Assembly: GCA_965217865.1 (NCBI GenBank)
Contig: CBDCJO010000002.1
Coordinates: 1,664,001-1,728,000, forward strand
DNA: 64,000 nucleotides
Source: Candidatus Latescibacterota bacterium
GTDB lineage: Bacteria > Latescibacterota > UBA2968 > SICM01
Direction of reading: 5' to 3'
Shown here: one piece after another, positions 930 through 62,935 of the stretch
Layout: every line of letters starts with the position of its first letter
How positions within the stretch are numbered: the stretch's first letter is position 1
Notes under the pieces: model-generated
What the model was told of the DNA's origin: nothing
The model's database searches: none
What the model saw: only the letters and a program-made list of their open reading frames with translations
Made by a program: the position numbers and the translations under genes

Positions 930-979
930 TGGAAATGGAAAATGGAAAAGTCAGGGGTCGGAGGTCAGGGGTCGGGGAT
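930..979 (+). repeat. Polar heptamer array (AAATGGA then GGTCAGG/GGTCGGA)
   Basis: tggaaatggaaaatggaaaagtcaggggtcggaggtcaggggtcgggg directly abuts the start codon of the - strand ABC gene. Confidence 0.85.
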
Positions 980-1086
980 AAAAGCGTTGATTCCCCATTC
1001 AGAAATCAGACTGCGATGGATTTTCGTCGTTTCATTGCCGATATCTTTCAATAACCGTTTCATCCACCTCTGTTGGCGCGAAAAAA

Positions 1087-1205
1087 GAGATTCCCTTCGA
1101 CTCCGTGGCCAAAGAACGGCCACTCCGCTCAGGACAAGCTTCGCCGGAGTTTATCCTGAACGTAGTGAAGGGGATCAGAATGACATTTTTGATTTGAACT
1201 GTCTC
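1087..1205 (-). repeat. REP-like palindromic repeat (TGTCAT.CTGA...GAAG family)
   Basis: Reverse complement GAGACAGTTCAAATCAAAAATGTCATTCTGATCCCCTTC...CAGGATAAACTCCGGCGAAG matches 9199-9280. Confidence 0.75.
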
Positions 1206-1220
1206 AAAGACGAATAGAAA

Positions 1221-2765
1221 TTGATAAACCTAGATTCTCTCAATTTGATCCGGAATAGGATCAAAGTCAACTTTAATTCGCAAATAAGAGTGTCTCCGAT
1301 CAAGGAAAAAGGAACAAAACGTTCAAGCAGGGGTAGGGGAAAGGCGGGCAAGGGAACGGGGGACCTTCTGGAGAAGGTTCGGTCTTACGTCACCAAGTAC
1401 CGGATGTTCGATCCCGGTGATATGATCGTCGTGGCGGTATCCGGGGGACCCGATTCTGTGTGCCTGTTGGATCTGTTATCCCGCCTTCGGAAGGTCTTTG
1501 GGTTTCGGCTGTGTGTGGCCCACCTCAACCACGAACTACGGGGAAGGGCTTCGGATGGAGATGCCCGGTTCGTATGCCGATTGGCGGGCAAGATGGACCT
1601 CCCCTTCCATTCCGGGCGTTGCGATGCCGAAACCCTGGCCAAGGCAGAGGGTCGTTCCGTGGAGGATGCATCCCGGCAAGCCCGTCTCCGTTTTCTGGAG
1701 GAGGTAAGGACCCGGGTGGGAGCCGCCCGCGTCGCGCTCGGACACACCCGTGGTGATCAGGCGGAGACGGTACTGCTCCGCCTCCTTCGAGGGAGCGGAC
1801 GGGGCGGGTTGGGTGCGATGCGCCCCGTGCGTGATGGGGTGTGGGTAAGACCCTTGCTCGAGGTCAGCCGGGAGGAGGTCTTGAGCTACCTGAATCTCAG
1901 GCAACTTCGATTTCGACGGGATGCCTCAAACCGGGATACCCGTTTTACCCGCAACCGAATCCGACTGGACCTGATTCCCAAGCTCCGGAGTGACTATAAT
2001 CCCGAGATCGAAGGCATTCTCGCCCGCACGGCTCTTCTCCTGGGAGAGGAGGAGGCATGGCTTGAGGAGGTCGTTCAAAGGGCATTTTCCCGCGCAAAAC
2101 GCCACGCGGCGCCAGGAAAGATAGTCCTTGATATTAAACGGGTTTTGGGTTATCATATTATTTTACAACGTCGAATCATTCGAAAGGCCCTGTTTGATTT
2201 GGGGTCTCCGGGTGACGGGCTGGCATTTGAGGCTGTCGAGCGGGTTGTGAACGCCCTGAATCGAACGTCTTTTGGCATCCGGTCATCCGAGCAGATCGGG
2301 ATTTTTCGAACGTCCGATGCCCTTATCTTTTCTCGGCCGCTCTCGCCCTTCGAGATTCCGGTGCGGATACCGGGCCGGACCCTGATTCCTCCTCTGGGCA
2401 TCACCCTATTCGCCCGCATCCATTCTGCATCAGGGATCCGGGCGTTTATTCGCTCCGCTAGTTCCGATGAGGCGTATCTGGATTTGAGCTCCGTCGAGCC
2501 GGGGGTGATTCTTCGTAACCAGCGGAGGGAAGATCGGGTCAGGCCCCTGGGGATGAGGGGGACCAAACGGGTGAACGATCTACTGGCGGACGCCAAGGTC
2601 CACCGTTCCCTTCGGGACAGCGTACCGATCCTGACCAGCGGCGGGGACATCATCTGGGTCGTGGGACATCGCCTTTCGCACGCCGCCCGTGTGACCGTCA
2701 GGACGCAGCGGGTCGTTCACTTTCGGGTGAAGCCTTCGCGGAAAAGTCGAACCCGGGATTCATGA
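1221..2765 (+). CDS. tilS: tRNA(Ile)-lysidine synthetase
   Basis: PP-loop VAVSGGPDS, HLNHELRG, HTRGDQAET, RPLL, DASN...RNRIR and TilS C-terminal domain; lies upstream of ftsH. True start is probably downstream of 1221. Confidence 0.95.
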   Translation: MINLDSLNLIRNRIKVNFNSQIRVSPIKEKGTKRSSRGRGKAGKGTGDLLEKVRSYVTKYRMFDPGDMIVVAVSGGPDSVCLLDLLSRLRKVFGFRLCVAHLNHELRGRASDGDARFVCRLAGKMDLPFHSGRCDAETLAKAEGRSVEDASRQARLRFLEEVRTRVGAARVALGHTRGDQAETVLLRLLRGSGRGGLGAMRPVRDGVWVRPLLEVSREEVLSYLNLRQLRFRRDASNRDTRFTRNRIRLDLIPKLRSDYNPEIEGILARTALLLGEEEAWLEEVVQRAFSRAKRHAAPGKIVLDIKRVLGYHIILQRRIIRKALFDLGSPGDGLAFEAVERVVNALNRTSFGIRSSEQIGIFRTSDALIFSRPLSPFEIPVRIPGRTLIPPLGITLFARIHSASGIRAFIRSASSDEAYLDLSSVEPGVILRNQRREDRVRPLGMRGTKRVNDLLADAKVHRSLRDSVPILTSGGDIIWVVGHRLSHAARVTVRTQRVVHFRVKPSRKSRTRDS

Positions 2766-2790
2766 TCGATAATCAAGGAAAACCTTATTT

Positions 2791-5022
2791 ATGAGTGATC
2801 CAGGCCCGGATAAGTCGGGATTTAAGAAATCGAAAGAGGAGAAGCGGGGTCGACCGTCGTCTCGACAGACTCCCACCGGTCGAGACAAAGACAAGGGTCC
2901 GATCGAATCGGACGGCAATCCACCGGGACGGGGTAAGCGGAAGGGTGGCGGAATCCCTCGCGGATTTCAATGGCGGCGCGCATCCAAGACGCTCGCCCTC
3001 TGGGTCTTTTTCATCCTCGTCGTGATCTTTCTTGCCAAGTTCTTCGGCAGCAACATCCCTTCGGATACGGCCATCATCAGTTACAAGTCCTATACCCAAC
3101 TCCTGAAGGACCGTAAGATCAGGAACGCAGAGATCGTGGAGACGGTGTTCCACGGGAGGTTGGTCGAGCCGGAGATTCTGGAAGACGAGACAGGGAGCGT
3201 CAAAGCCTTTGAGAAATTTATTGTCAACCTCGGGATTATCGACGCCCAGACCCGTGGTGATTGGGAAAAATACGGGGTAGACTTCAAATTCAAAACCAAA
3301 CCCTATAACTGGGTCAGCTTCCTGTTCAACCTGCTTCCCTGGATTCTGTTTATGGTTCTCTGGTTGTTCATCCTGCGTCAGATGCAAGGGGGGCCTAAAG
3401 GGGCTTTCACGTTCGGCAAGAGCAAGGCAAAGCTGATATCCGAAGATAAGCCCAAGGTGACGTTTAAGGATGTCGCAGGTGTGGAAGAGGCCAAACAGGA
3501 ACTTCAGGAAATCATCGAGATCTTGAAGGAGCCCGGGAAGTTTCAGAAGCTGGGGGGCCGAATTCCGAAAGGGGTCCTTCTTGTGGGGCCTCCCGGAACC
3601 GGAAAGACATACATCGCCAAGGCCGTGGCCGGTGAGGCCGAGGTGCCCTTTTTCAGCATGAGTGGCTCCGACTTCGTGGAGATGTTCGTCGGGGTGGGGG
3701 CCTCCCGGGTCAGGGATCTGTTCGAACAGGGAAAAAACCACGCCCCCTGTATCATTTTCATCGATGAGATCGACGCGGTAGGGAGGCACCGGGGAGCCGG
3801 GATCGGGGGTGGACACGATGAACGGGAGCAGACGCTCAACCAGCTCCTCGTCGAGATGGACGGGTTTGAATCCAATGAAGGGGTGATCTTGATTGCGGCC
3901 ACGAACCGACCGGACGTCCTTGACCCCGCCCTGCTTCGTCCAGGCCGATTTGATCGGCAGGTGGTTGTAGATCGGCCGGACATCAAGGGGCGGGAAGGAG
4001 TCCTGAGCGTCCATACCCGAAATATCCCATTGGCCAAGGGGGCCAATCTGAAGGTCCTCGCGCGCGCCACCCCGGGCCTGTCTCAGGCCGACTTGGCAAA
4101 CCTGGTTAATGAGGCCGCCTTGCTGGCCGCCCGGTTTAATCGAAACCGGGTAACGATGGGGGATATGGAGGCCGCCAAGGACAAGGTGATGATGGGGACG
4201 GAACGCAGGAGCCTGATCATCCCGGATGAGGAAAAGCGGCTGGTGGCCTACCATGAGATCGGGCATGCCCTGGTCTCCAAGCTCATCCCGGGCAGCGATC
4301 CGATCCACAAGGCGACGATCATTCCGATCGGAAGGGCTCTAGGCGTCACGCATTTTCTGCCCCAGGACGAGCGCCATGTTCATCCAAAGAGCTACTGGTA
4401 CGACCGCATCACTATGATGTTGGGGGGTCGCACGGCTGAAAATATCGTTTATGGAGAGACCGCGAACGGGGCTGCAGACGATTATGAAAAGGCCACTCAG
4501 ATCGCCCGGAGTATGGTATGTGAATGGGGGATGAGCGAGCGACTCGGTCCGATGACTTATGGAAAAAAAGAGGAAGAGATCTTTTTGGGCAGGGAGATCG
4601 CTAAACACAGAGACTACAGTGAGAAAACCGCACAGGTTATCGACGAAGAGATCGCGTTGATCGTCAGCGGTGCCGAGAAACGTGCAGACGATCTTCTTCG
4701 GTCCAATGAGGACAAGCTCCACACGCTGGTCGAAGCCCTTCTGGAATTTGAGGTCCTGGACGGGTCCCAGATGGACAGGGTCCTTGCCGGGGAGGTCCTC
4801 AAACGTCCGGGCAACAAGAAGGCCCGGTGGAACAGCCAGGAGGGGAACGGACGGAGCGGCAGGATAAGGAGGGGAGGCGAAGGTAAAGGGAGGCGAAGGG
4901 TTGAACCGGAGGCAGCGGATAATCTTCCGAAACCTGAAGCGTCTGAAAGCAGTGAAACCGCAAACGACAAACGGCAAACGGGAGATGGGGAAGAGCAGGG
5001 GCCAGGGGCAAGAGGAAATTGA
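2791..5022 (+). CDS. ftsH: ATP-dependent zinc metalloprotease FtsH
   Basis: Two TM helices, Walker A GPPGTGKT, Walker [29 protein letters not shown], zinc motif HEIGH. Confidence 0.98.
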
Positions 5023-5105
5023 AGATTGAAGATTGAAGATTGGGGGACCCCTGGCAATGGCAGAAGTCGGAGGTCAGAGGCTGGGGAAGGAAATTACAAA
5101 TCAAG
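4960..5105 (+). repeat. Polar heptamer array overlapping the ftsH 3' end
   Basis: gcaaacgacaaacggcaaacggga..., (gaagatt)x3, agtcggaggtcagagg. Confidence 0.7.
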
Positions 5106-5126
5106 GGTTTCATGATCACCCAGGCA

Positions 5127-5159
5127 AAGAAGGGCACGGGCACCGTGTCCTTCTTTTTT
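5127..5159 (+). terminator. Rho-independent terminator after ftsH
   Basis: Stem AAGAAGGGCACGG / CCGTGTCCTTCTT with GCA loop, followed by a T-run. Confidence 0.7.
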
Positions 5160-5180
5160 AATTCCGGTCGGAGAAGCCCG

Positions 5181-5262
5181 GGGTTCGTGGATCGAAAGGC
5201 CGTGGATCGTGGTTCGTGACTCGAAAAATCCGGGGATCGTGATTCGTGGATCGGGGTTCGGA
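5181..5262 (+). repeat. TCGTGGA/TCGTGAT heptamer array
   Basis: ttcgtggatcg...ccgtggatcgtggttcgtgactcg...gatcgtgattcgtggatcggggttcgg. The same family occurs at 16416-16440 and 24227-24245, and reversed at 10989-11035, 19147-19178 and 24546-24591. Confidence 0.7.
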
Positions 5263-5341
5263 AAAGCCACTAATCTGAATCCATTCAAAAACCTTTGACT
5301 ATTCCTCAAAAATTCGCATCGATTCTGAACGAATCACGACC

Positions 5342-6244
5342 ATGAACTCTCGTTCTCCAAGGGACTTGCATTGCGGGCGTAAAACCCTGAGGATCGGTGA
5401 GCGGACGCTGATCATGGGTATTCTGAACGTCACTCCGGATTCTTTCTTCGACGGAGGGATTTACCTTGACGGTGAAGCCGCTTATGCCCGGGCACAGACT
5501 ATGATCGATGAAGGGGTTGACCTGATCGACATCGGTGGGGAATCGACACGCCCGGCCGGCGCGTACGGCGCGGGATCCGAACAGGTCTCGGAAGCGGAGG
5601 AGATCAGACGCGTTGTCAGTGTCATAGAACGCGCTGCGAAAGACTCCCCCGTCCCGATCTCCGTGGACACCACGAAGGCCGAGGTTGCACGGCGGGCACT
5701 GGATGCAGGAGCGGAGATCGTAAACGACGTGAGTGCCCTTTCGTTCGACCCCGGGATGGCGGACTTGGTGGCGGATCGAGGTATCCCGGTGGTGCTGATG
5801 CACATGAAAGGAACACCAAGTACGATGCAACTGAATCCCACTTATGAGGATGTCGTCGGAGAGATATTGGCGTTCCTCCGCGAGCGTCAGGCCTTTGCAA
5901 GGCAGTCAGGGATCGGTCCGGATAAAATTCTGATCGATCCGGGACTTGGATTTGGAAAACGGATCCGGGATAATCTGGAGATCATCTCGCGCCTTGAAGA
6001 ATTCCGATCCCTCAAAGTTCCTTTGCTGATCGGTCCCTCCCGGAAGACTTTCCTGGGCGCCCCGGAAGTCCTGGCTGAGGAACAGTCCCTTCCCCCCGAG
6101 GAGCGATTAGAGGGGACCCTCGCTTCCCTGGCGCTCTGCATCGCAAATGGTGCCGACATCGTCAGGGTCCACGACGTCAAGGCGGCCGTGCGGGCCTGTC
6201 GAGTGGCGGATGCGATTGTAAAAGTTCCAGGTTCAAGTAAATGA
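5342..6244 (+). CDS. folP: Dihydropteroate synthase
   Basis: IMGILNVTPDSFFDGG, DIGGESTRP, ISVDT, DPGLGFGK, SRK, VRVHDV; tilS-ftsH-folP synteny. Confidence 0.97.
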   Translation: MNSRSPRDLHCGRKTLRIGERTLIMGILNVTPDSFFDGGIYLDGEAAYARAQTMIDEGVDLIDIGGESTRPAGAYGAGSEQVSEAEEIRRVVSVIERAAKDSPVPISVDTTKAEVARRALDAGAEIVNDVSALSFDPGMADLVADRGIPVVLMHMKGTPSTMQLNPTYEDVVGEILAFLRERQAFARQSGIGPDKILIDPGLGFGKRIRDNLEIISRLEEFRSLKVPLLIGPSRKTFLGAPEVLAEEQSLPPEERLEGTLASLALCIANGADIVRVHDVKAAVRACRVADAIVKVPGSSK

Positions 6245-8803: not shown

Positions 8804-8813
8804 GACCCTTCCG

Positions 8814-8879
8814 CCATCCCCACTGGAATATAGAATACAGAAGACAGGAGTCAGAAGAAGACCTAATTCAACTCAGTCG
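8814..8879 (+). repeat. ~65 bp AGAATAC/AGAAGTC-based repeat, copy 1 (after argB)
   Basis: ccatccccactggaatatagaatacagaag...tcagaagaagacctaattcaactcagtcg, near-identical to 10826-10885. Confidence 0.8.
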
Positions 8880-8894
8880 GCTGGGTGTTAGAGG

Positions 8895-9136
8895 TGAGAC
8901 GGCAATCGGGGGCCAGAGGTCGGAGGTCAGGGATCGGGTCGGAGGTCAGGGAAAAGCAGTAGCAGTGGCAGTAGCAGGAAAGGCGAAGGCCAGGGGTCGG
9001 AGGTCAGTCCGTCAAACGTCAAATCGTGAGACGTGAGAAGGAGGTTGGGGGGCAAGAGGAAATGGAAGATTGAATATCGAAGAGATCCTTATGCCCACAA
9101 AAAAGTCCTGAGGTTTTCAAATATTCAATATTCAAT
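8895..9136 (+). repeat. Composite polar array (GGTCAGG, GCAGTG, GTGAGAC) plus TTGAATA inverted-arm mini-element
   Basis: Periodic blocks visible directly; ends in ...aatattcaatattcaat, which is inverted relative to gaagattgaatatcgaag. Confidence 0.8.
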
Positions 9137-10812: not shown

Positions 10813-10825
10813 CAGGCCCTACTGC

Positions 10826-10885
10826 CCATCCCCACCGGAATACAGAATACAGAAGTCAGAAGAAGACTTAAATTCAACTCAGTCG
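10826..10885 (+). repeat. ~60 bp AGAATAC/AGAAGTC-based repeat, copy 2 (after argD)
   Basis: ccatccccaccggaatacagaatacagaagtcagaagaagacttaaattcaactcagtcg. Confidence 0.8.
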
Positions 10886-10894
10886 TCAGCCGTA

Positions 10895-11035
10895 AGCCAG
10901 CAGAAGGCAGTAGCAGGTGGCAGTGGCAGGAAAAAGCAAAGGCAGGAGTCGGAGGTCAGGGAAATTGAAGATCGAATATTGAAGAAGCGATCCACGGTTT
11001 TCCGATCCCCGATCCCCGAATCACGAATCACGGAC
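10895..11035 (+). repeat. Composite array (GCAGTG, GGTCAGG, TTGAAGA, then TCACGAA)
   Basis: gcagtagcaggtggcagtggcagg...gtcggaggtcaggg aaattgaagatcgaatattgaag...cgaatcacgaatcacgg. Confidence 0.75.
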
Positions 11036-12350: not shown

Positions 12351-12429
12351 TCAGGGGGCCAGGGAATGGCAGTAGCAGTGGCAGGGTAAGCAGGAGAGGA
12401 AAGTGCAAGGTGCAAATGGACTATAGACG

Positions 12430-13679: not shown

Positions 13680-13938
13680 GGATCGAAAGACCGTCAAACG
13701 TGAGACGTGAAACGGAAAAGATTCCCCCTCAACACCCCCTCACCGGAATACAGAATACAGAAGTCAGGAGAAATCAAGTCATTTAAATTGAATATTGAAG
13801 ATTTCCATGAAACACCTCACCAGAATACAGAAGACAGAATATCACCCCCCTCGCCCTGTCGATAATCCTTCCGTTATATATTGATTTTCCTTTCTTGTAA
13901 ATTCTTACCGTTCTCTTCAGATTTCCCCTTTTTTACCC

Positions 13939-16142: not shown

Positions 16143-16260
16143 GTCGGGGGTCAGGGAAAAGAAAAAAAGTGAAACGTGAGACGGGAGACGGGAAAAAACA
16201 GTAGAAGTGGCAAGAAAAGCAAGGGGCCAGAGGTCGGAGGTCAGGGGTCGGGTAAGGCAA
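16143..16260 (+). repeat. Composite polar array (GGTCAGG, GTGAGAC, GCAGTR)
   Basis: gtgaaacgtgagacgggagacggg...ggccagaggtcggaggtcaggggtcggg. Confidence 0.75.
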
Positions 16261-17368: not shown

Positions 17369-17442
17369 GGCTATGGAAATGGAAAATGTAAAGTGGAAAG
17401 GATCGGGTGTCAGGGGTCAGGGAAATGACGCATTTGGAAGTT

Positions 17443-24153: not shown

Positions 24154-24281
24154 ATCATGAGACGGCAAAACGTGAGAAGTGAGAAGGAAAGTAGCAGTGG
24201 CAGTGGCAGGGGAAAAGAAAAGGCGGGGATCGTGGATCGTGATTCAGAAAATTAGTGACGGACATATAAAATTCGGTCAAG

Positions 24282-24322
24282 TGTCAGACCTAACCCCTAG
24301 CCCCTTCCCTAAAGGGAAGGGG
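24282..24322 (+). repeat. CCCCTTCCC...GGGAAGGGG hairpin repeat
   Basis: tgtcagacctaacccctagccccttccctaaagggaagggg; inverted partial copy at 16272-16304, related copy at 34288-34323. Confidence 0.7.
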
Positions 24323-24394
24323 AATAAAGGCTTAATTTAGCTAATCTTCAGTCACATGACCTCCACTCTATGTAATGGGATAATCCCTTAGATA

Positions 24395-27768: not shown

Positions 27769-27801
27769 CGGAAGTCTCCGAAGATCAGTGAAATGTGAGA
27801 C

Positions 27802-41066: not shown

Positions 41067-41140
41067 AGAAAATTGAAGCGAGATCAATAAAGCCACAAGA
41101 AAGTCCTTAAATGTTCTAAATATTCAATATTCAATATTCA
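41047..41140. repeat. TTGAAGA...ATATTCA inverted-arm mini-element
   Basis: Left arm aattgaagatcgaaaattgaag, right arm (atattca)x3; core similar to that at 9082-9120. Confidence 0.75.
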
Positions 41141-47049: not shown

Positions 47050-47051
47050 AT

Positions 47052-47385
47052 GGGAATGGAAAAGGCAGGGGCTGGAGGCCGAGGGAAATTGAAGATTGAA
47101 TACTGAAGATTGAAGATCAAAGAGACCATAAAGGAAGTAGCAGTGGCAGTTGCAGGAAAGACAAAAGCCGAGGCCGGATGTCAGGGGTCGGGGAAAGCAG
47201 TAGCAGTGGCAGTGGTAGGAAAAACGAAAGCAGAGGCCAGAGGTCGGAAGTCGGGAAAAGCGGGAGGTGAGAGCTCAAGAAAAGCAGTAGTAGTCGGCAG
47301 TGGCAGGAAAACCGTGAAACGTGAGAGGTGAGATGTGAGACGGAAAACCGGATCGGGTGTCGAAGATCAGGGAAAAGCAGTAGCT
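47052..47385 (+). repeat. Long composite polar array
   Basis: (gaagatt)n, three GTAGCA/GTGGCA blocks alternating with GGTCGGA blocks, then (gtgagag)n. Confidence 0.85.
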
Positions 47386-47478
47386 TTTCCTTGATTTTTC
47401 TCACAGTACCGGATATTATCTTTAAATAAGATCAGCAAGTGCAAATCCTCCAAGGACGGGTAGATCGAGGGAATTCGA

Positions 47479-49806
47479 ATGCATTTCAAGTTCAGTCTTA
47501 AGAACTTGACATTTCTCCACTTGTTATTGTTCCTAAGCATCGGTTTTCAAGACGGGCACCCCTCAGATTGGCCAAGCTGGCGGGGGCTGGATCAAAACGG
47601 TGTTTCGACCGAGTCCGGGCTCATCTCGGAATGGTCTGTGAAAGGGAAAAACCTGATCTGGAAAGCGAATTTCGTGGGCCGATCCACCCCGATCGTGCTT
47701 GACGGCCGGGTCTATGTGATGGGACGGGCGGGCCGTGAGATTACGAAGCAGGAGCGGGTTGCCTGCTTCGACGCTCGGACCGGGAACATGGTATGGGAAC
47801 ATCGATTCAACGTTTTTCATACCACGATCCCTTTTAACCGTGTGGGATGGGCGAGTCCGGTCGGTGATCCGGAAACCGGAAATATCTATGCCCACGGGGT
47901 TGGGGGCCCGTTGATTTGTTTCAACCGGGATGGCGATATTCTCTGGTCACGATCCCTGACCGAAGAATTCGGGAGAATTTCCGGGTATGGGGGCCGCGTC
48001 CATACACCGGTCGTGGACGAGGATCTCGTGATCATCAGTTTTCTCAATTCGAGCTGGGGTGACCAGATCGTTCCCAAGCATCGCTACTATGCCTTCGATA
48101 AGCTGAGCGGTGAAGTGGTCTGGGTCTCTGCACCGGGAGGAAGACCCCTGGATACCACCTACTCCACCCCCGTGGTCAAGGAAATTCAGGGACAGAGGCT
48201 CCTGATCGGGGGGAACGCGGACGGATGGATCTATGCGGTTAAAGTCAGGACAGGGAAAAAGGTCTGGGGATTTCAGCTCAGCAAACGAGGCATCAACTCC
48301 TCGGTGGTCGTGGTGGGGACAAGGGTTTATGCCTCTCACAGCGAAGAGAATATCGACAACACGGCGATGGGGCGCGTGGTCTGCATCGACGGGACGGGTA
48401 CCGGCGATATCACGAAGACAAACGAGGTCTGGCGATACGACGAATGTCTTGCGGGATATACCTCACCCGTAGCGCACGGTGGACGGGTTTATTTCGTTGA
48501 CAATTCGGCAAACATTCACTGTCTGGATGCCGGGACGGGTGAGTTAGACTGGAAATACAATCTCGGAACGGTGGGCAAGGGGTCCCCTGTCTGGGCGGAT
48601 GGCAAGCTCTACGCGCCGGAGGTCAACGGAACCATCCACATCGTTCAACCTGTCGAAAAAGGGGCCCAGAGGCTGGATGTTGAAAAGATCCGAGCCAGTG
48701 GAGGGCACCTGGCCGAGATATTTGGATCACCGGCGATCGGATATCGTAGAATCTACTTTGCCACCGAAGAAGGCCTATATTGTCTGGGGGACAAAGACAC
48801 CGAATTTTCCGCATCTTCAAAGGCAAGTTTGAAACCTGCCCCTTCCAAACCGGAATCTCCCGGGGATTCCGCAGATCGAGTTTCCGCCCCCGCTCACTTT
48901 CACATCGTACCTTCCGAAGTATCCGTTGCTCCTGGAAAATCGGTGGTTTTCCGTTGTCGAGCATTCGACAGGAATGGACAATTTCTGAAGGAAGTGACCC
49001 CGACGTGGTCGTTCGTTGGATTATCCGGGATGATCTCTCGCGATGGTATTTTTATCCCGGACCGGAGCGGTCCACAGGCCGGGACGCTGGTTGCCCGCCT
49101 GGGAGGGATAGAAGGCCGAGCCCGGGTCCGGGTGGTTCCGGATATCCCCTGGTCGGAGGACTTCGAGAGGATCCCGGTTGGCCAAAATCCCGCTCACTGG
49201 ATCGGAGCTTCTAAGAAATTTGTCGTGGCGCAGAAGGATGGGAATCGTGTGCTCGTTAAATCGCCCGTAAAAAGGGGATTAAATCGTTCGAATGTCTATC
49301 TGGGACCATCGACCTTGAAAGAATACACGATCCAGGCGGATCTGATGGGGAGCCGACATCGACGGAACCAGTCGGATATGGGGTTGATCGCAAACCGTTA
49401 TACCCTCGATATGATGGGGAACCATCAGCGACTTCAGGTTCGCTCCTGGGCTTCGGATTTACGGATGGCGAAAACCGTCGGTTTCCGTTGGGAGCCGGAT
49501 ATCTGGTATACCATGAAGATGCGTGTGGATATCCTGGATGGAAAAGGGGTCATCAGGGGAAAGGTATGGCGAAGAGGGGATCCGGAACCAGGGGTCTGGT
49601 CGATCTCCGCGGAGGATCCGCTGCCCAACCTGGAAGGAAGCCCGGGGCTTTATGGATACTCGGCAGCGGAAATTTGGTATGATAATGTGAAAGTCTGGGG
49701 TCAGGGGTCGGAAGTCAGGGGTCAGGGGTCGGAAGTCAGGGGTCAGGGGTCGGAAGTCAGGGGTCAGGGGTCGGAAGTCAGGGGTCAGGGAAAAGAAAAA
49801 CCGTGA
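47479..49806 (+). CDS. Exported PQQ-like beta-propeller protein with C-terminal Ig-like and lectin-like beta domains
   Basis: Signal peptide, WPSWRG, repeated D..TG...W blades, Pro/Ser linker, beta-sandwich ending PGLYG...DNVKV; repeat-derived (GQGSEVR)4 tail. Confidence 0.85.
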   Translation: MHFKFSLKNLTFLHLLLFLSIGFQDGHPSDWPSWRGLDQNGVSTESGLISEWSVKGKNLIWKANFVGRSTPIVLDGRVYVMGRAGREITKQERVACFDARTGNMVWEHRFNVFHTTIPFNRVGWASPVGDPETGNIYAHGVGGPLICFNRDGDILWSRSLTEEFGRISGYGGRVHTPVVDEDLVIISFLNSSWGDQIVPKHRYYAFDKLSGEVVWVSAPGGRPLDTTYSTPVVKEIQGQRLLIGGNADGWIYAVKVRTGKKVWGFQLSKRGINSSVVVVGTRVYASHSEENIDNTAMGRVVCIDGTGTGDITKTNEVWRYDECLAGYTSPVAHGGRVYFVDNSANIHCLDAGTGELDWKYNLGTVGKGSPVWADGKLYAPEVNGTIHIVQPVEKGAQRLDVEKIRASGGHLAEIFGSPAIGYRRIYFATEEGLYCLGDKDTEFSASSKASLKPAPSKPESPGDSADRVSAPAHFHIVPSEVSVAPGKSVVFRCRAFDRNGQFLKEVTPTWSFVGLSGMISRDGIFIPDRSGPQAGTLVARLGGIEGRARVRVVPDIPWSEDFERIPVGQNPAHWIGASKKFVVAQKDGNRVLVKSPVKRGLNRSNVYLGPSTLKEYTIQADLMGSRHRRNQSDMGLIANRYTLDMMGNHQRLQVRSWASDLRMAKTVGFRWEPDIWYTMKMRVDILDGKGVIRGKVWRRGDPEPGVWSISAEDPLPNLEGSPGLYGYSAAEIWYDNVKVWGQGSEVRGQGSEVRGQGSEVRGQGSEVRGQGKEKP

Positions 49807-49945
49807 AACATGAGATGGAACACGTGAGACGGGGGAAAGCAGTAGCAGGTGGCAGTGGAAGGAAAGGCAAAGGCGGGGGCCGGAGGTCCGGGGTCAGGGA
49901 TCAGAGGTCGGAGGGAATTGAATATTGAATATTGAATATTGCAAG
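49691..49945 (+). repeat. Perfect 21-bp tandem repeat x4 plus composite polar array
   Basis: (GGGGTCAGGGGTCGGAAGTCA)4 at 49697-49780, then GTGAGAC, GCAGTG, GGTCAGG and (ttgaata)3 blocks. Confidence 0.92.
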
Positions 49946-52459: not shown

Positions 52460-52692
52460 TGCAAATGGAAAATGAAAAGTGCAAAAGTTCAGGGGTCGGA
52501 GGTCAGGGGTCAGGGAAAAAAAGTAGCAGTAGCAGTGGCAGTAGCAGAAAAAGCAGGGATCGGAGGTCAGGGGTCAGGCGAAAAAAGTAGCAGTGGCGGT
52601 AGCAGGAAAGGCACGGATTGGAGGTCGGAAGTCGGAGGTTAGGGTCAGGGAATGAAAATGCAAAGTGCCCAGTGCAAGATGGAAAGTGCAAA
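52460..52692 (+). repeat. Nested composite array A-B-C-B-C-B-A
   Basis: A=AAATGGA/AAGTGCA, B=GGTCAGG/GGTCGGA, C=GTAGCA/GTGGCA; fills the whole spacer. Confidence 0.88.
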
Positions 52693-54258
52693 ATGATCCA
52701 CATTCCCGTATTGAGGTCCGGTCGGCCGTATCGGAGTCTAAAACTCCTGGACGTACGGCACGTCCAATCCGGGGAGGTTCTCGCCCATCTCAGTCAGGCA
52801 AACCGGGGGCTGATCTCGAAGGACCTGTCGGCCGCGGCATTCCATAGAAAGGGCCTCGAGGCATTTTCCGTTTCAGAACTCCTGACAATTTGCCGAAAGG
52901 CCGCCCGATTTTTCGCCGAGGAATCTTTGCAGCTTGACGGGACTTTACAGTCGGCTGAAGATTACGTGAAACAGGTCTCGGGCTCCACGGGCATGCCCGA
53001 GGCCTTGTGTCGAAAAAATATGGATAAGATCCGTTCGGTTCTGGAGAGGATGGAGGAGATCCTCGACGGGTTGACACGCGGACTGGATCTTTCGATTCTC
53101 GATTCCGGAAGGGGCATCCAGGATGGACGGCCCCTGAGTTTTTTCCCCCAGACAGATGCGCTGGGAGCCGTGCTTCCAAACAATTCCCCCGGTGTGCATT
53201 CCCTCTGGCTTCCTTCGATTCCCCTAAAGATTCCGCTTGTGCTCAAACCCGGAAGCGAGGAGCCCTGGACCCCCTTTCGTATCTCCCAGGCCTTTATCGC
53301 AGGGGGCTGTCCGCCTGAAGCATTCGGATATTATCCAACGGACTATTCAGGGGCGAGTGAGGTTCTGCTTCGCTGCGGACGCTCCATGTTGTTTGGAGGA
53401 GGGTCGACGGTCACCCCGTGGAAGGCGGATCCGAGGATTCAGATTCACGGGCCGGGTCGCAGCAAGATCATCCTGGGAAAGGACAGGGTCCACAATTGGG
53501 GAAATTATATGGAGGTCATGCTGGGATCCATCGTGGACAATGGGGGGAGGTCCTGCATCAATGCCTCAGGGATCTGGGTTCCGGAAAAGGGCCGGGAGAT
53601 CGCAGAGGTTCTTGCGGACCGTCTTTCGGAAATCGAGCCAAAGCCGCTTGACGACCCTGAGGCGAAACTTGCCGCTTTTTCGAATCCGAAGATGGCCAGA
53701 CGGATTTCTGAAACCATCGATCAGCAGTTGAAGGCCCCGGGAGCAAAAGAAATATCAGCAAGTGGCAGGAGCGAGAGGGTGGTTGAATTCGATGGGTGCA
53801 CTTTCCTCCGCCCGACGGTCATCTGGTGCGAAGATACGGAGCACCCTCTGGCGAACACGGAGTTTTTATTTCCGTTCGTGAGCGTGGTCCAGGTCCCCCA
53901 GGAGGAGATTCTGAAACGGATCGGGCCCACACTGACGGCCACTGCGATCACCGAGGATGAAGATTTTATCCGTGAGTTACTGGGATCTCAGGATGTGGAC
54001 CGTCTCAATTTAGGGGCGATATCCACAAACCATGTATCCTGGGACCAGCCCCACGAAGGGAATCTATTTGAGCATCTCTATCGACAAAGGGCTTTGCAAA
54101 TGCAGGGGCAGTGGCAGTGGCAGGAAAGCAAAGGCAGGGGCCAGAGGTCGGAGGTCAGAGGAAAGAAAAATCGTGAGACGTCAGACGTGAAACGTAAGAT
54201 CGCAAAGTCAGTAGCAGTGGCAGTGGCAGGAAATCAAGTCAGGGAATTGAAGAATTGA
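52693..54258 (+). CDS. ALDH-superfamily acyl reductase (GriD/LuxC-like)
   Basis: VLPNNSPG, LKPGSEEPWTP, FGG, HGPGRSK, catalytic Cys in GGRSCINAS, EFLFPF; last ~50 aa repeat-derived. Confidence 0.8.
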   Translation: MIHIPVLRSGRPYRSLKLLDVRHVQSGEVLAHLSQANRGLISKDLSAAAFHRKGLEAFSVSELLTICRKAARFFAEESLQLDGTLQSAEDYVKQVSGSTGMPEALCRKNMDKIRSVLERMEEILDGLTRGLDLSILDSGRGIQDGRPLSFFPQTDALGAVLPNNSPGVHSLWLPSIPLKIPLVLKPGSEEPWTPFRISQAFIAGGCPPEAFGYYPTDYSGASEVLLRCGRSMLFGGGSTVTPWKADPRIQIHGPGRSKIILGKDRVHNWGNYMEVMLGSIVDNGGRSCINASGIWVPEKGREIAEVLADRLSEIEPKPLDDPEAKLAAFSNPKMARRISETIDQQLKAPGAKEISASGRSERVVEFDGCTFLRPTVIWCEDTEHPLANTEFLFPFVSVVQVPQEEILKRIGPTLTATAITEDEDFIRELLGSQDVDRLNLGAISTNHVSWDQPHEGNLFEHLYRQRALQMQGQWQWQESKGRGQRSEVRGKKNRETSDVKRKIAKSVAVAVAGNQVRELKN

Positions 54259-54271
54259 TTCGTGCGTTATT

Positions 54272-55408: not shown

Positions 55409-55495
55409 CGATGGACAGTGGTCAGAACGTCAGACGTGAAACGTGAAACGGAAATCGGGGGTCGGAGGTCAGAGGTCGGGGGATAATTAAATCGA

Positions 55496-57994: not shown

Positions 57995-58178
57995 CAGAGG
58001 AAATTGAAGATTGAAGAATGAAAATTGGAGATTCAGCTGAGCCAGTAGCAGTTGGCAGTAGCAGGAAAAAGCGAAGGCAATAACGGAGTAACGAGGAGAG
58101 CGTGGGAAGGTGAAGATTGAATATCGATAATTTAAGATTGAAGAGAGTTGTTCAAATATTCAATATTCAATATTCAAT
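57995..58178 (+). repeat. Composite array plus TTGAAGA...ATATTCA inverted-arm mini-element
   Basis: tgaagattgaatatcgataatttaagattgaagagagttgttcaaatattcaatattcaatattcaat at 58111-58178. Confidence 0.78.
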
Positions 58179-58196
58179 CAAGTTGGGGAGCGCTTT

Positions 58197-59480
58197 ATGA
58201 GATGGTGTAATCGGGTTTGCTTGCCAATCGGGATTTTTATGGTGTCAAGTCTGACTTTTGGGTTGAAGCCCGGGTGTGCCTCCGACCAGGATTCGACGGA
58301 TTGGGCGCAATGGCTCGGGCCAAATCGAAATGGTGTCTCCGACGAGACGGGGCTGCTCAGGAGTTGGCCGGATGCTGGACCGGGTGTTCTCTGGCGGATC
58401 CGGGGAGGCGAGGGGTTTTCGGGCATCTCGATCTCTCAAGGCCTGGCTTATACCATGTATGGCCGAGGTGACGATGAGTTTGTGGTTTGCCTGAATGCAT
58501 CGACCGGGGATGAGGTCTGGCGTTTTCGAAGCGACTCCAATTTATTCGAGCCTCAGGGGGGGAACGGTCCTCGTTCAACCCCGGCGGTGGATGGGGACCG
58601 GGTCTTTGTCCTGAGTGCAAACGGCAAGCTCTATGGTTTGAACGCCAGGACCGGGGCAAAGTTATGGGAGCACGATTTCGTGAAGCGATTCGGGAGCAGA
58701 CGGCCGAGATGGGGTTTCTGTTCGTCGCCGCTGGTGGAGGGAGATCTCGTTATGATTGAAGCGGGGGGAACCCGTGGAAATTCCCTCCTGGCCTTCGATA
58801 AGGCCAATGGACGGCTTGTCTGGTCCTCCCAGAGAGACAAGCCCGGATATTCATCGCCGGTCGCGATCACGGCGGCCGGGGTTCGGCAGGTCCTTTTCTT
58901 CACCGCAGGGGGTCTTGTCTCGGTTTCACCGAAGGACGGAAGGCCGTTCTGGCGTTATGCCTGGTCGACAAGCTATGACGTCAATGCGGCCACCCCCATA
59001 TTTATCCCTCCTGACAAAGTTTTTATCTCCTCGGGTTATGGAACGGGTGCAGCGGTTTTACAAATAAAAGAGGCCGGGGCAGGAATCCGGGTGGCGCAGG
59101 TCTGGAAAAACCGTGAGATGAAGAACCATTTTCCATCCTCGGTTCTGAACGGGAACTACCTCTACGGATTCGATAATGCGATTTTAAAATGCATCGATGC
59201 CCGAACCGGAGAAGCCGTGTGGCGATATCGAGGATTTGGAAAAGGGACCGCGATTTTCGCGGATGGTCATCTGATTGTCCTGGGAGAGCAGGGGAACCTG
59301 GGGCTGGTCGAAGCGACACCTTCGGGAATTCACGTTAAGGCGGAAGCCCGGGCCATGAATGGTAGGTGCTGGACGGTTCCCACACTGGCGGGAGGCCGTC
59401 TCTATGTGCGGAACGAAAAGGAGATTGCCTGTCTGGATTTAAAAGCAGAGGTCAGGGGTCGGAGTTCAGGGGTAAGGTAA
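58197..59480 (+). CDS. Exported PQQ-like beta-propeller protein
   Basis: DWAQWLGPNRNG, GPRSTP, SSPLV, GYSSP, repeated TG...W blades, WTVPTLAGGRLYVR. Confidence 0.87.
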   Translation: MRWCNRVCLPIGIFMVSSLTFGLKPGCASDQDSTDWAQWLGPNRNGVSDETGLLRSWPDAGPGVLWRIRGGEGFSGISISQGLAYTMYGRGDDEFVVCLNASTGDEVWRFRSDSNLFEPQGGNGPRSTPAVDGDRVFVLSANGKLYGLNARTGAKLWEHDFVKRFGSRRPRWGFCSSPLVEGDLVMIEAGGTRGNSLLAFDKANGRLVWSSQRDKPGYSSPVAITAAGVRQVLFFTAGGLVSVSPKDGRPFWRYAWSTSYDVNAATPIFIPPDKVFISSGYGTGAAVLQIKEAGAGIRVAQVWKNREMKNHFPSSVLNGNYLYGFDNAILKCIDARTGEAVWRYRGFGKGTAIFADGHLIVLGEQGNLGLVEATPSGIHVKAEARAMNGRCWTVPTLAGGRLYVRNEKEIACLDLKAEVRGRSSGVR

Positions 59481-59569
59481 AAGAAAAACCGAGAAAGGTC
59501 AGACGTCAGACGTGAGACGGGGAGAAGCAGTAACAGTGGCAGGTGGCAGTGGCAGGAAAGGAAAGAATT

Positions 59570-60742
59570 ATGTTGAAATTACAAATGTCGATTCTCGGAT
59601 TGATAGGGATTTCCCTTATTCTTCCGGGTCCCGGTCTGAGCCAACCGATCCGGGGAGAGGTCCCGCAGAATGTGGAGGATATATTCCTACCAGAGGTCGA
59701 AGGGGTCACAGTGGAGACCTGGGTTGAGAACCTTGAGATCCCCTGGTCGCTTGTTTTTCTCCCAAACGGCGACGCCCTAGTGGCTGAGCGGCCCGGCCGA
59801 ATCCAGAGGATACCCCAAGGCGAAAACAGTCCAGAGCTTTACGCGGAGATCGAGGTCGCCGCAAGGGGGGACGCGGGTCTGATGGGAATCGCCCTGCATC
59901 CGGATTTCGACAAACAGCCTTATCTGTATGCCATGACCAGTTATGCAGACGGGGAAAAGCTCTACACACGTATCATTCGTCTGAAACACGAGGGGGATGA
60001 GGGACTTTTCGACCGCATCATATTCGGGCCTATACCGGGCCACAAATATCACATAGGTGGCAGGATTGGTTTCGGACCGGACGGGATGCTCTATGTGGGC
60101 ACGGGGGATCTCTTCCAGCCAAACACAGCACAGGATCTGGAATTACTGACGGGAAAGATCCTTCGAATCACCCCGGAGGGGGATATTCCGGAGGACAATC
60201 CCTTCCCGGGTTCGGCAATCTATTCGTATGGCAATCGTGTTGTTCAGGGATTGGCCTGGCATCCGGGGACCGGCGACCTTTTCAATACGGAACACGGTCC
60301 GTCGGGCGAACTCCCCGGGGCAAAGTACCGCGACGAGATCAACGTGATTGAAAAGGGGGGGAACTACGGTTGGCCGATCGTCGTTGGTGCGCCGGGAATG
60401 CCGGACTACCGGGATCCGATCGTCATGTGGAAAAAAGCGGCTGTTCCCCCCGCCGGAATGACGTTTTTCCAAGGGGATCTCTTCGTCGCCACACTGGGAA
60501 GCCAGGCCTTGATCCGGATCGGTTTCAAAGATGACGTCGAAGGCTATGAAATTGCGAAGATCGAAAGATGGTTTGCGCAGGACTATGGGAAAGGGACTTA
60601 TGGAAGGTTACGGGATGTTGCGGTCGGGCCGGACGGTAATCTCTACGTACTCACGAGTAACAGAGACGGTCGGGAGAAGCTCCGTCCAAATGATGATAAA
60701 ATCCTCCGTCTGAAGTTCAAGGACATTGAAACGGGAAACTGA
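59570..60742 (+). CDS. PQQ-dependent aldose/sorbosone dehydrogenase (GSDH, YliI-like)
   Basis: LEIPWSL.FLPNG, ERPGR, GLMGIALHPDF, HIGGRIGFGPDG, GKILR, EHGP, DEIN, GNYGWP, GRLRDV. Confidence 0.88.
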   Translation: MLKLQMSILGLIGISLILPGPGLSQPIRGEVPQNVEDIFLPEVEGVTVETWVENLEIPWSLVFLPNGDALVAERPGRIQRIPQGENSPELYAEIEVAARGDAGLMGIALHPDFDKQPYLYAMTSYADGEKLYTRIIRLKHEGDEGLFDRIIFGPIPGHKYHIGGRIGFGPDGMLYVGTGDLFQPNTAQDLELLTGKILRITPEGDIPEDNPFPGSAIYSYGNRVVQGLAWHPGTGDLFNTEHGPSGELPGAKYRDEINVIEKGGNYGWPIVVGAPGMPDYRDPIVMWKKAAVPPAGMTFFQGDLFVATLGSQALIRIGFKDDVEGYEIAKIERWFAQDYGKGTYGRLRDVAVGPDGNLYVLTSNRDGREKLRPNDDKILRLKFKDIETGN

Positions 60743-60754
60743 GGAGAAAGTTAT

Positions 60755-61640
60755 ATGGCTACAGATTTGCCGACAAGGGTCCTCGGGTGTACGGGATTGG
60801 AGGTGACACAGCTCGGGTTCGGGGGGGTGGAGGTCGGGAATTTCAACAGGGACATCGGCGATGATCAGGCGGGAAGGGTGCTCAATGCTGTCCTCGATTC
60901 GGGCATCAATTTTCTAGACACCGCCCCGGACTACGGCCTGAGCGAGGAGCGGATCGGCGCGACCGTCAGCCATCGCCGCGATTCATTCTACCTTGCGACC
61001 AAGTGCGGCTGCAACATCGACCCGTACGGGGTCGAGCAGGAACCCAAGCACCTGTGGACAGGCGATCTGCTTCGCAAGAACATCGAACAGAGCCTGAGGC
61101 GTATGAAGACGGATTATGTTGATCTACTTCAGATGCATAACCCCTCAGTGGAGGCAGTTGAAAGTGGGGGGCTCGTAGAAGCCCTCAATGAGATCCGAGC
61201 GTCCGGGAAAACCCGTTTCATCGGTGTTTCTTCCACGGCTCCGCATCTTTTGGAATTCGTCCGGATGGGTGTTTTCGACACATTCCAGATCCCGTACTCC
61301 GCCCTGGAACGCAGGCACGAAGGGATGATCCAGGAGGCTGCTGATGCAGGCGCAGGTATCATCATTCGAGGCGGCATTGCCCGGGGCCACCTGGGGGGGG
61401 GACCGCTGGGCCAAATGCGATGGTGCCCAGCTGACGGACCTGCTCGACGGGATGAGCCGGTACGAATTCGTGCTGCGTTTCACGCTCACTCATCCCGCCT
61501 GCCACACCACCATCGTGGGCACGGCCGACCTGGAACATCTCCAATCTAATAAAGCCGCCGCTCAGGCGGGTCCTCTTCCACCGGATGTGTACGAGCAGGC
61601 AAAGGAGCGGTTGGATCAAATCGGGGAGAGACCGGAGTGA
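60755..61640 (+). pseudogene. Aldo/keto reductase frameshifted at a G9 tract (61393-61401)
   Basis: LDTAPDYG, ATKCG, DLLQMH and FIGVS in the first frame; LRFTL.HP...TTIVGT...GPLP in the second. G8 would restore a single ORF. Confidence 0.78.
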
Positions 61641-61820
61641 AAATGGAAAGTGCAAAATGCAGAATGGAAAAGTCAGGTGCCAGGGGTCGGAGGTCAGAGG
61701 TCAGGGAAAAGATAAACCGTGAGATGTGAGACGGAAAAAAGCAGTAGCAGTGGCAGTAGCAGGAAAAGCAAAGGCAGGGATCGGAGAAAAAGATAATCAA
61801 TGTGGCAGTCGTAGCAGGTA
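61638..61820 (+). repeat. Composite polar array (A-B-GTGAGAC-C)
   Basis: aaatggaaagtgcaaaatgcagaatggaaaagtcagg...gcagtagcagtggcagtagcagg. Confidence 0.85.
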
Positions 61821-61872
61821 TGGGAACCCTCCCAACACGGCAACGGCAAAGATTCTGCTGAAGGAGAAAAAA

Positions 61873-62727
61873 ATGGAAAAGCGGGCTTATGGTCGAAACG
61901 GGGATGAGCTGTCGATCGTCGGTTTTGGTGGAATTGTGGTCATGAAAACGGAGCCGGACGAGGCCAGCCGGCTGGTCGGGGAGGCGGTCGAGCGGGGGGT
62001 GAACTACTTCGACGTGGCTCCCGCGTATGGAAACGCCGAGTCGTGTCTGGGGCCAGCGCTGGAACCCTATCGGAAGGATGTGTTCCTTGCGTGCAAGACC
62101 GGAAAGAGGGATAAGGCCGGGGCTGAGGAACAGCTCCACAACTCCCTCAAGCTGCTCCGCACGGACCACTTTGATCTATACCAGCTTCACGCCATGACCA
62201 CCCAGGAGGACTTCGACCAGGCCGTTGGGCCCGGGGGAGCCCTCGAAGCCTTTGTCGAGGCCCGGGATAGGGGGAAGATTCGCCATATCGGGTTCTCCGC
62301 GCATTCCGTTGAGATCGCACTGGCCCTGCTGGACCAGTTCGCGTTCGATTCCGTCCTGTTTCCGATCAACTGGGTGGGCTATTTTGAAGCGGATTTCGGA
62401 CCTCAGGTCGTGGCGAGGGCTTCCGAAAAGGGGGCCAGCCGGCTTGCGTTGAAGGCGATGGCCTACGGCCTTCGGGAAGAGGGGGCGCCCAAGCGATATT
62501 CCAATTGCTGGTACGAGCCGATCGACGATCCGGAACTTGCCTCCCTGGCTCTGCGCTTCAGCCTCTCCCAACCGATTACGGCGGTTATTCCGCCGGGTGA
62601 TCCGGGACTATTCAAGATGGCACTGGATCTGGCCGAAAATTTTACGCCGATTACGCACGAGGAGACCGAGGAACTTCGTATAAGAGCGGAGGGGGGAAGA
62701 CCTTTGTTTAAGCTTTCGGCTGCATGA
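61873..62727 (+). CDS. Aldo/keto reductase
   Basis: FDVAPAYG, LACKT, DLYQLH, HIGFSAH; SD AAGGAG. Confidence 0.9.
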   Translation: MEKRAYGRNGDELSIVGFGGIVVMKTEPDEASRLVGEAVERGVNYFDVAPAYGNAESCLGPALEPYRKDVFLACKTGKRDKAGAEEQLHNSLKLLRTDHFDLYQLHAMTTQEDFDQAVGPGGALEAFVEARDRGKIRHIGFSAHSVEIALALLDQFAFDSVLFPINWVGYFEADFGPQVVARASEKGASRLALKAMAYGLREEGAPKRYSNCWYEPIDDPELASLALRFSLSQPITAVIPPGDPGLFKMALDLAENFTPITHEETEELRIRAEGGRPLFKLSAA

Positions 62728-62935
62728 AAATGGAAAATGAAAAAGTCAGTGGTCAGAGGTCGGAGGTCAGAGGTCAGGGAAAAGAAAAACCGTCAGTCGT
62801 AAGACGGAAGATCGAGAATCGGGTGTCAGGGGTCAGAAGTAGGGGAGGAAAGTGCAGAATGGAGAAGGCAAAAGTCAGGGGTCAGAGGTCGGGGATGGAA
62901 ATTGCAAAGTGAAAAATAAAAAAATGGAAATTACA
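62725..62935 (+). repeat. Nested composite polar array (A-B...B-A)
   Basis: Starts aaaatggaaaatgaaaaagtcag, ends aattgcaaagtgaaaaataaaaaaatggaaattac. Confidence 0.8.

What the first reader, a model, noticed from the sequence alone, without database searches (positions are those of the whole stretch)
930..62935. Window-wide ordered 6-7 bp repeat 'grammar' polarised to one DNA strand regardless of gene direction
Seen: about 25 spacers are built from a few families: A=AAATGGA/AAGTGCA, B=GGTCAGG/GGTCGGA, C=GTAGCA/GTGGCA, D=GTGAGAC/GTGAAAC, E=TTGAAGA/TTGAATA, F=AGAATAC. A, B and D read purine-rich on + wherever I found them, including beside or inside - strand operons (930, 17373, 18968, 27788, 30556, 34274, 39410). 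C and E appear reversed only as right-hand arms. Blocks are often nested, e.g. A-B-C-B-C-B-A at 52460-52692. Established: heptamer STRR arrays occur in cyanobacteria, and replichore-polarised motifs exist. GGTCAGGG is one mismatch from KOPS (GGGNAGGG) and GCAGGTGG is one mismatch from Chi (GCTGGTGG). Inference: either a replication-coupled repeat-writing or insertion process that targets earlier repeats, or a chromosome-architecture signal.
Basis: partly seen in the sequence, partly recalled or inferred. Interest (0 to 1): 0.8.

Follow-up and report, generated by a model that had tools for sequence, protein, structure and literature searches.

The report
Fork-oriented repeat chains at gene edges
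Runs of 6-7-base repeats fill hundreds of gene gaps in this bacterium, face one DNA strand that flips at the predicted replication origin and terminus, and match the arms of small four-helix-bundle gene cassettes; they are likely kept and recopied by the passing replication fork, which would explain where many bacterial heptamer repeats come from.

Summary
In detail: 41 of 41 matches to a family-B doublet lie on + (0.18 expected), and another study's contig reproduces one array exactly. Genome-wide, 614 of 701 solo arrays follow the local synonymous-site GC skew, also between convergent (44:2), divergent (17:2) and head-on genes (51:16). Polarity flips across parS/dnaA and within 3 kb of a dif-like site half a genome away, and at about 20 further skew switches, likely rearrangement breakpoints. 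The families are the purine-first arms of TIGR02436 cassettes. Chains start flush at the fork-entry gene edge (105 of 166 versus 13), extend 32 leading-strand genes, and differ in a related strain. Not supported: KOPS/Chi-like signal (no excess or skew in genes) and nesting (40 observed, 55 expected). Best reading: the arm met first by the fork is kept and recopied; the enzyme is unknown. This scan found these armed cassettes before on other DNA; the origin/dif flip and fork-side anchoring were not in the notes returned.

The parts
930..976 (+). Chain A-B starting 4 nt from the start codon of a minus-strand gene
5018..5345 (+). Chain E-B overlapping the ftsH stop, then a closed G element (left arm, unique core, mirrored arm)
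8804..9136 (+). F module with unique core, chain B-C-B-D, closed E element (9060-9140)
10813..11035 (+). F module, C, B, E and reversed G units between argD and argG
12351..12420 (+). B-C-A traces after the argG stop
13690..13840 (+). Chain D-F-E
16143..16252 (+). Chain B-D-C-B in a convergent gap, on the side of the + gene
17374..17425 (+). Chain A-B between minus-strand genes, 9 nt from a start codon
18968..19008 (+). A array between minus-strand genes, 16 nt from a start codon
21960..22110 (+). Chain B-D-C-B read in frame inside the ORF 20667-22292 ahead of the UvrD-like gene
24160..24590 (+). Chain D-C-G, with reversed G arm at 24566-24589
26382..26442 (+). Chain A-B at the gpmI stop, convergent gap
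27788..27921 (+). D trace and closed C element (expanded left arm, 50-nt core, short right arm); folds as a hairpin, z -5.4
30556..30580 (+). A array 6 nt from a start codon inside the minus-strand oxidase operon
41066..41143 (+). Closed E element with short left arm
47050..47400 (+). Long chain B-E-C-B-C-B-C-D
49691..49941 (+). B array (4.8 x 21 nt) read in frame as the tail of ORF 47479-49806, then D-C-B-E
52460..52692 (+). Chain A-B-C-B-C-B-A
54095..54260 (+). Chain C-B-D-C-E that replaces the stop of ORF 52693-54258 (homologues end at 468-485 aa, this one at 521)
55417..55485 (+). Chain D-B; absent from a contig of related-strain run X7
58001..58193 (+). E arm, C, reversed E arm; identical in run X2, replaced by about 87 nt in run X7
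59444..59585 (+). Chain B-D-C; replaced by about 96 nt in run X7
61640..61800 (+). Chain A-B-D-C-B
62726..62935 (+). Chain A-B-D-B-A-B-A starting at a stop codon

Best explanation
The arrays match the arms of heptamer-armed four-helix-bundle (TIGR02436) cassettes and read purine-rich on the G-skewed strand; that strand is inferred to be the leading strand, and the arm that the fork meets first is likely kept and recopied while the far arm is likely lost. Shown: each cassette is an inverted repeat with the purine arm 5' on both strands, so the first arm met by a fork is purine-form on the leading strand whichever way the cassette lies. Shown: chains are pure in orientation, start flush at the gene edge (or dif site) on the fork-entry side, sometimes erase that gene's stop codon, end in a closed hairpin element when one survives, share unique 45-80 nt cores between loci, and turn over between strains. 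Inferred: the nascent leading strand stalls at such a site, is trimmed back, re-primes on another locus's pyrimidine strand through the shared A/G-rich arm ends, copies one or more modules and rejoins; repeated rounds erode the fork-entry side until an essential edge stops them. Inferred: the extra polarity blocks are inverted or moved pieces of the two replichores. No enzyme is identified; a role for the four-helix protein is untested.
For: Cassettes: 4 TIGR02436 loci, each with purine left and mirrored right arm, of families D, A, C and a new one (the D right arm lies behind an IS); upstream is purine-richer than downstream in 73 of 80 outside loci. Polarity: 614 of 701 arrays follow skew segments built from fourfold sites, 398 of 701 the simple origin-dif model; 153 of 166 multi-array loci, 165 of 166 pure; gaps convergent 44:2, divergent 17:2, head-on 51:16 (p 2e-5), co-directional 155:10. 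Replication marks: dnaA C2:2239766, perfect parS 2236296, dif-like 5420679, 3.18 Mb apart in 6.43 Mb; skew turns - to + at 2237856-2241811; arrays flip between 2178705 and 2278562 and between 5420712 and 5423869; a B array starts 5 nt past dif. Not a by-product of mutational skew: chains are 70% purine with A over T (+0.42) while fourfold sites lean to T. Skew persists (0.08-0.09) over 30 kb from any array. Anchoring: 105 of 166 chains within 40 nt of the gene on their 5' side, 13 of 166 on the 3' side; start-codon-anchored pyrimidine-on-sense arrays 44 origin side vs 8; arrays in the last 150 nt of 32 of 1749 leading and 5 of 1604 lagging genes. Closed element last in 10 of 13 mixed chains, first in 1. 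Extra switches: 8 of 21 within 10.5 kb of a tRNA (2.5 expected), 20 of 21 near a tRNA or long repeat (14.6 expected). Turnover: three spacers missing or replaced in one contig of run X7.
Against: Fork direction is inferred from skew, not measured; in blocks that disagree with the origin-dif axis arrays follow the skew as well as elsewhere (237 of 258 vs 377 of 443), so those blocks must be recent, mis-joined, or polarity must be self-templated. One switch (2935.6 kb) has no tRNA or long repeat and is covered at even depth in three runs, with no single listed contig bridging it. The single rRNA operon lies against its skew block and only 1852 of 3494 genes are co-directional. 13 recent IS200 copies split 2:2 in discordant blocks. 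The asymmetric cores are oriented too (E 42 of 45, F 62 of 76, G 16 of 17), which arm loss alone does not explain and oriented insertion would. The dif flip rests on four loci, two of which also agree with transcription, and the skew model itself placed that switch 47 kb earlier. Decayed right arms are only weakly enriched behind chains (0.24 vs 0.11 per kb). E elements fold no better than shuffles. No intact cassette with B, E, F or G arms was found in this genome. 16 of 70 head-on gaps follow transcription.
Confidence: 0.5

Rival explanations
1. [quoted passage not shown]
For: Asymmetric E, F and G cores follow skew also in convergent and divergent gaps (37 of 39); all 4 TIGR02436 genes are on the skew-leading strand; one other small repeat is oriented too (23 of 26); the genome has IS200-type transposases; precedent in PMC5027513 and PMC3971601 (passages).
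Against: Solo chains fold no better than shuffles; module ends are ragged; no transposase or RT is bracketed by arrays of its own; does not by itself explain flush anchoring on the fork-entry side or erased stop codons; the 4 genes are also co-directional with their upstream genes.
Confidence: 0.22
3. The arrays are oriented by transcription or kept as RNA-level signals at gene ends.
For: 161 stop-anchored loci are purine-on-sense; 19 more on head-on genes; gaps with an origin-side stop are filled about twice as often (17-23% vs 7-9%); sense bias is reported for Beggiatoaceae repeats (PMC4679880, passages).
Against: Convergent gaps offer two stops but arrays follow skew 44:2; family A follows skew 38:0 in head-on gaps; chains erase stop codons and differ between strains.
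Confidence: 0.07
4. The motifs are KOPS- or Chi-like chromosome architecture signals.
For: Polarity flips at origin and dif; near-matches to KOPS and Chi (motifs recalled).
Against: Inside genes GGTCAGGG is 136:140 with observed/expected 0.98 and GCAGGTGG 0.84; arrays are clustered, multi-family, lineage-specific (122 matches here, 0-2 in each of 131 class genomes), and 303 of 701 are misoriented to the origin-dif axis as assembled.
Confidence: 0.03

Closest known systems
Heptamer-armed TIGR02436 / PF05635 four-helix-bundle cassettes (Avd-like fold per PMC10053308, passages; arms noted in earlier scan findings)
   Same: Same inverted purine-first arms, same unit types, four such cassettes in this genome.
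   Different: Here nearly all arrays are solo arms chained from several families, tied to replication strand and anchored on the fork-entry edge.
Xanthomonas GGGAATC and Nostoc heptamer repeats (PMC4692102, passages read)
   Same: Intergenic heptamer arrays, close to the 5' neighbouring gene, often as convergent inverted pairs.
   Different: That paper reports no leading/lagging preference in Xanthomonas; one family per genome; G4-forming units, whereas most units here lack G-tracts.
TAACTGA repeats of Beggiatoaceae, Microcystis, Bacteroidetes (PMC4679880, passages read)
   Same: Intergenic heptamer sets, mixed with related units; the author notes 8 Microcystis sets between stop codons all in one chromosome orientation and leaves it open.
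   Different: Mostly oriented to downstream start codons; no replication test, no cassette link in the passages seen.
IS200/IS605 single-strand transposition (PMC5027513, PMC3971601, passages read)
   Same: Orientation follows local GC skew; coupling to the fork.
   Different: IS have fixed ends, subterminal hairpins and a transposase; these chains have ragged ends, mostly no hairpin and no linked enzyme.
KOPS and Chi (recalled)
   Same: Strand-polarised, flip at origin and dif.
   Different: Those are single over-represented octamers inside genes; these units are not.

Membership tests
TIGR02436 cassette arms | Four-helix gene enclosed by purine left arm and mirrored right arm | tested here: met
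   4 of 4 loci; 73 of 80 outside loci purine-richer upstream
TIGR02436 cassette arms | Array units equal cassette arm units | tested here: met
   Met for A, C, D and the ACGATGG type; B, E, F, G have no intact cassette here
TIGR02436 cassette arms | Core of closed elements is a gene remnant | tested here: inconclusive
   E cores score 1.9-2.8 on a C-terminal profile vs -1.3 to 0.3 (sd 0.5) shuffled, but the motif is short and K/R-rich
KOPS / Chi | Over-represented, skewed single motif inside genes | tested here: not met
KOPS / Chi | Polarity flip at origin and dif | tested here: met
   but about 20 more flips
KOPS / Chi | Recognition by FtsK or RecBCD/AddAB | not testable with these tools
   needs an assay
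IS200/IS605-type non-autonomous element or REP/BIME | Orientation follows GC skew | tested here: met
IS200/IS605-type non-autonomous element or REP/BIME | Stable subterminal hairpin and fixed ends | tested here: not met
   2 solo chains and 2 E elements fold like shuffles; only the closed C element folds
IS200/IS605-type non-autonomous element or REP/BIME | HUH transposase flanked by the repeats | tested here: not met
   13 copies checked; 4 have arrays within 1 kb, as insertions into spacers or elements
Retroelement (DGR, group II intron, repeat-writing RT) | RT gene linked to arrays or to the four-helix gene | tested here: not met
   3 RT matches, none next to a TIGR02436 gene; single arrays 2-3.5 kb from one
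Cyanobacterial STRR | Tandem heptamer arrays in spacers | tested here: met
   Form matches; unit identity with named STRR types not tested; search listing only

The most novel reading that the evidence does not exclude
The Avd-like four-helix protein, with a host polymerase or a trans-acting reverse transcriptase, is a fork-coupled repeat writer: it captures the nascent leading-strand 3' end where a fork leaves a gene and extends it with modules templated from cassette arms, a telomerase-like activity inside bacterial chromosomes that also rewrites protein C-termini.
Probability: 0.12. Interest if true: 0.85.

Novelty: new variant of a known kind. Interest (0 to 1): 0.58.

Why it matters
Excess heptamer repeats in bacteria are long noted and unexplained, and the one paper found that tested replication strand saw no bias (PMC4692102). 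Here they flip at origin and dif, start on the fork-entry edge, erase stop codons and turn over between strains. That converts the question into a direct experiment (cassette orientation by replichore) and gives the abundant TIGR02436 family a testable context. The arrays also serve as fine markers of past inversions.

Tried and rejected
Two-replichore polarity on the assembly as is: only 398 of 701. Nesting X-Y-X: below chance. KOPS/Chi: no excess or skew in genes. GxxExxY: 0 of 4 candidates (genome 96% complete). RT or HUH genes enclosed by arrays: none; long same-family pairs enclosed ordinary genes or IS and look like chance pairings. More four-helix remnants with my own 80-sequence profile: only the 4 known loci. 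Target-duplication swaps among 89 IS copies to pair up inversion ends: inconclusive, palindromic target and end offsets. IS200 orientation as a clock: 9 of 13 with origin-dif, 8 of 12 with skew. Orthologous spacers in relatives: 13 loci at 45-63% identity, one chance doublet, no arrays; the E element matched 1 of 167 other phylum genomes, over 23 nt only. No RNA holder listed. Paper searches returned no report of replication-polarised heptamer chains or of their link to TIGR02436; the library lacks most subscription papers, and no supplements were read (those of PMC4692102 and PMC4679880 may list repeat positions and bear on strand bias).
Full report
Observation. The window is G000:C2:1664001-1728000 of a 6.43-Mb, two-contig genome. 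It carries housekeeping genes, mostly on +, with minus-strand blocks at 16.6-20.5 kb and 26.8-39.3 kb (gene calls are from my own simple caller, 76% coding). The repeat families are there as described: 60 arrays in 25 spacer loci, A, B, D and F all purine-form on +, C 10 of 11; a B doublet has 41 matches, all +, against 0.18 in shuffles. A seventh family, G, and rarer ones were found de novo. A contig from another study matches 57751-58325 exactly, so the arrays are not artefacts. A C-type 16-mer occurs 122 times here (reverse-read control 2) and 0-2 times in each of 131 other class genomes.

Polarity follows replication skew. Genome-wide there are 973 non-genic arrays in 508 loci. I segmented the genome by G/C and T/A at fourfold-degenerate sites only, without using arrays: 25 segments. 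Of 701 A/B/C/D/F arrays 614 follow the segment sign and 398 a plain origin-dif model. Of 174 loci with two or more such arrays 8 were ties; of the other 166, 165 are pure, 153 follow skew, 95 the plain model, and 99 of 127 follow transcription. By gap type: convergent 44:2, divergent 17:2, head-on 51:16, co-directional 155:10, ties 6 (here and I moved the terminus switch to dif and set five IS-rich or tiny segments aside, after seeing the arrays). dnaA lies at C2:2239766, the only parS match at 2236296, and a dif-like site (23 of 28 positions like E. coli dif, recalled) at 5420679, 3.18 Mb away. Skew turns negative to positive at 2237856-2241811. Arrays flip between 2178705 and 2278562 and between 5420712 and 5423869; the + array starts 5 nt after dif. 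The dif flip rests on few loci and the skew model alone put it at 5373.7 kb. The window sits in a positive-skew block (1.37-1.80 Mb, arrays 89:3) inside the left replichore as assembled. The 21 extra switches lie near tRNAs (8, 2.5 expected, p 0.001) or tRNAs/long repeats (20, 14.6 expected, p 0.004) in a genome with 450 long repeat intervals; I infer rearranged replichore pieces, as PMC3971601 does for multi-block chromosomes (passages). This is not proven: one switch has neither feature and is evenly covered in three runs, the rRNA operon is head-on to its block, IS200 orientation does not decide and the target-duplication test failed. Skew remains 0.08-0.09 over 30 kb from any array, 0.12-0.13 beside one.

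Not an architecture signal, not mutational drift. Inside genes the units show no excess and no skew beyond background (GGTCAGGG 136:140, O/E 0.98). Chains are 70% purine with A over T by +0.42 (67 chains), opposite to the T lean of fourfold sites and unlike array-free spacers (0.00).

What the modules are. Four TIGR02436 loci (two broken) each sit between a purine-form left arm and its mirror image, of families D, A, C and a further type; one (C2:1734312-1734625, C arms, frameshifted) is 6 kb past the window's end. The same layout holds in relatives and in 73 of 80 outside loci by purine content. PF05635 resembles the DGR protein Avd (PMC10053308, passages). Chain modules are such left arms with their A/G-rich inner ends. 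Closed short elements survive for E, G and once C, in a fixed arm order (E 32:2, G 20:0), with unique asymmetric cores shared between loci and oriented with skew (E 42 of 45, F 62 of 76, G 16 of 17). The E core may be the last codons of a four-helix gene (weak). G differs from the rest: its far arm expands, up to 266 nt, in the purine-richer reading on the skew strand. Order is non-random (D then C 31 vs 6, A then B 20 vs 7, B then E 14 vs 3) but nesting is below chance. Closed elements end the chain in 10 of 13 cases.

Anchoring and turnover. 105 of 166 chains begin within 40 nt of the gene on their 5' side, 13 end that close to the next gene. The anchor is a stop for co-directional genes (161 loci) and a start codon for head-on genes (44 vs 8), so it is the fork-entry edge, not the stop as such. 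Arrays lie in the last 150 nt of 32 of 1749 leading and 5 of 1604 lagging genes; ORF 52693-54258 has a repeat-coded tail where 7 of 7 homologues checked (of 13 fetched) stop at 468-485 aa. One 7.5-kb contig of run X7 (about 95-99% alike piece by piece) lacks the chain at 55417-55485 and replaces those at 58001-58193 and 59444-59585. A minority (16 of 70 head-on gaps) follows transcription, mostly anchored on the head-on gene's stop, by local inversion or a weaker transcription-linked route.

Mechanism. Because both strands of a cassette read purine arm first, the arm a fork meets first is always purine-form on the leading strand. Keeping and recopying that arm, with erosion toward the fork-entry side until an essential edge, explains polarity, purity, anchoring, erased stops and far-end hairpins in one rule; template switching between loci would explain shared cores and mixed families. 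These steps are inferred; confidence 0.5. Oriented single-strand insertion in the manner of IS608 (PMC5027513, passages) is the main rival (0.22) and fits the oriented cores better.

Prior knowledge. Xanthomonas heptamers show no leading/lagging bias (PMC4692102, passages); MacGregor noted co-oriented Microcystis sets and left it open (PMC4679880, passages). Searches found no report of this pattern. Earlier scan notes gave me the cassette-arm reading and described strand-locked arrays and skew domains in other genomes; look-ups returned none that ties them to origin and dif. Verdict: real, a new variant of a known repeat kind, interest 0.58.

Noticed in passing
window 20667-24153: A TIGR00375-like ORF and a UvrD-like ORF overlap by about 30 nt with a repeat chain in frame in the linker; possibly one fused gene with a frameshift.
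   Followed up: partly
window 12430-13679: Two overlapping ORFs each match part of an enolase-superfamily enzyme; likely one split gene.
   Followed up: no
window 1085-1205, 16330-16540, 24290-24345, 26436-26700: Other REP-like dispersed repeats share these spacers; two follow skew (23 of 26, 46 of 65), one does not (14 of 24), one leans the other way (5 of 18), one is too rare (5 of 7).
   Followed up: partly
window 5262-5325: The unique core of G elements holds a -35-like hexamer in most copies, without a clear -10.
   Followed up: no
L008 (C2:852719-853420): This TIGR02436 gene has a complete hairpin (left plus right arm) on each side rather than one arm per side.
   Followed up: no
C2:5252592-5253300 and C2:473650: Recent IS200 copies have inserted into a G element core and beside an E element, so the elements predate them.
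   Followed up: no
L001 (C2:2782061): The only rRNA operon found runs against its skew block; genome-wide only 53% of genes are co-directional with skew.
   Followed up: partly
C1:649257-656010 and C2:1-7302: The end of C1 and start of C2 belong to one repeat family, suggesting the contigs join there; one 1.5-kb IS has 89 copies.
   Followed up: no
C2:2645329-2648424: A second, 1031-aa protein with the RNA polymerase catalytic motif, apart from rpoC; matches the mini-polymerase noted earlier by the scan.
   Followed up: no
window 26807-39324: Alternative complex III-like genes followed by cytochrome c oxidase genes form the long minus-strand operon; 47479-60742 is a cluster of PQQ-type propeller proteins.
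   Followed up: no
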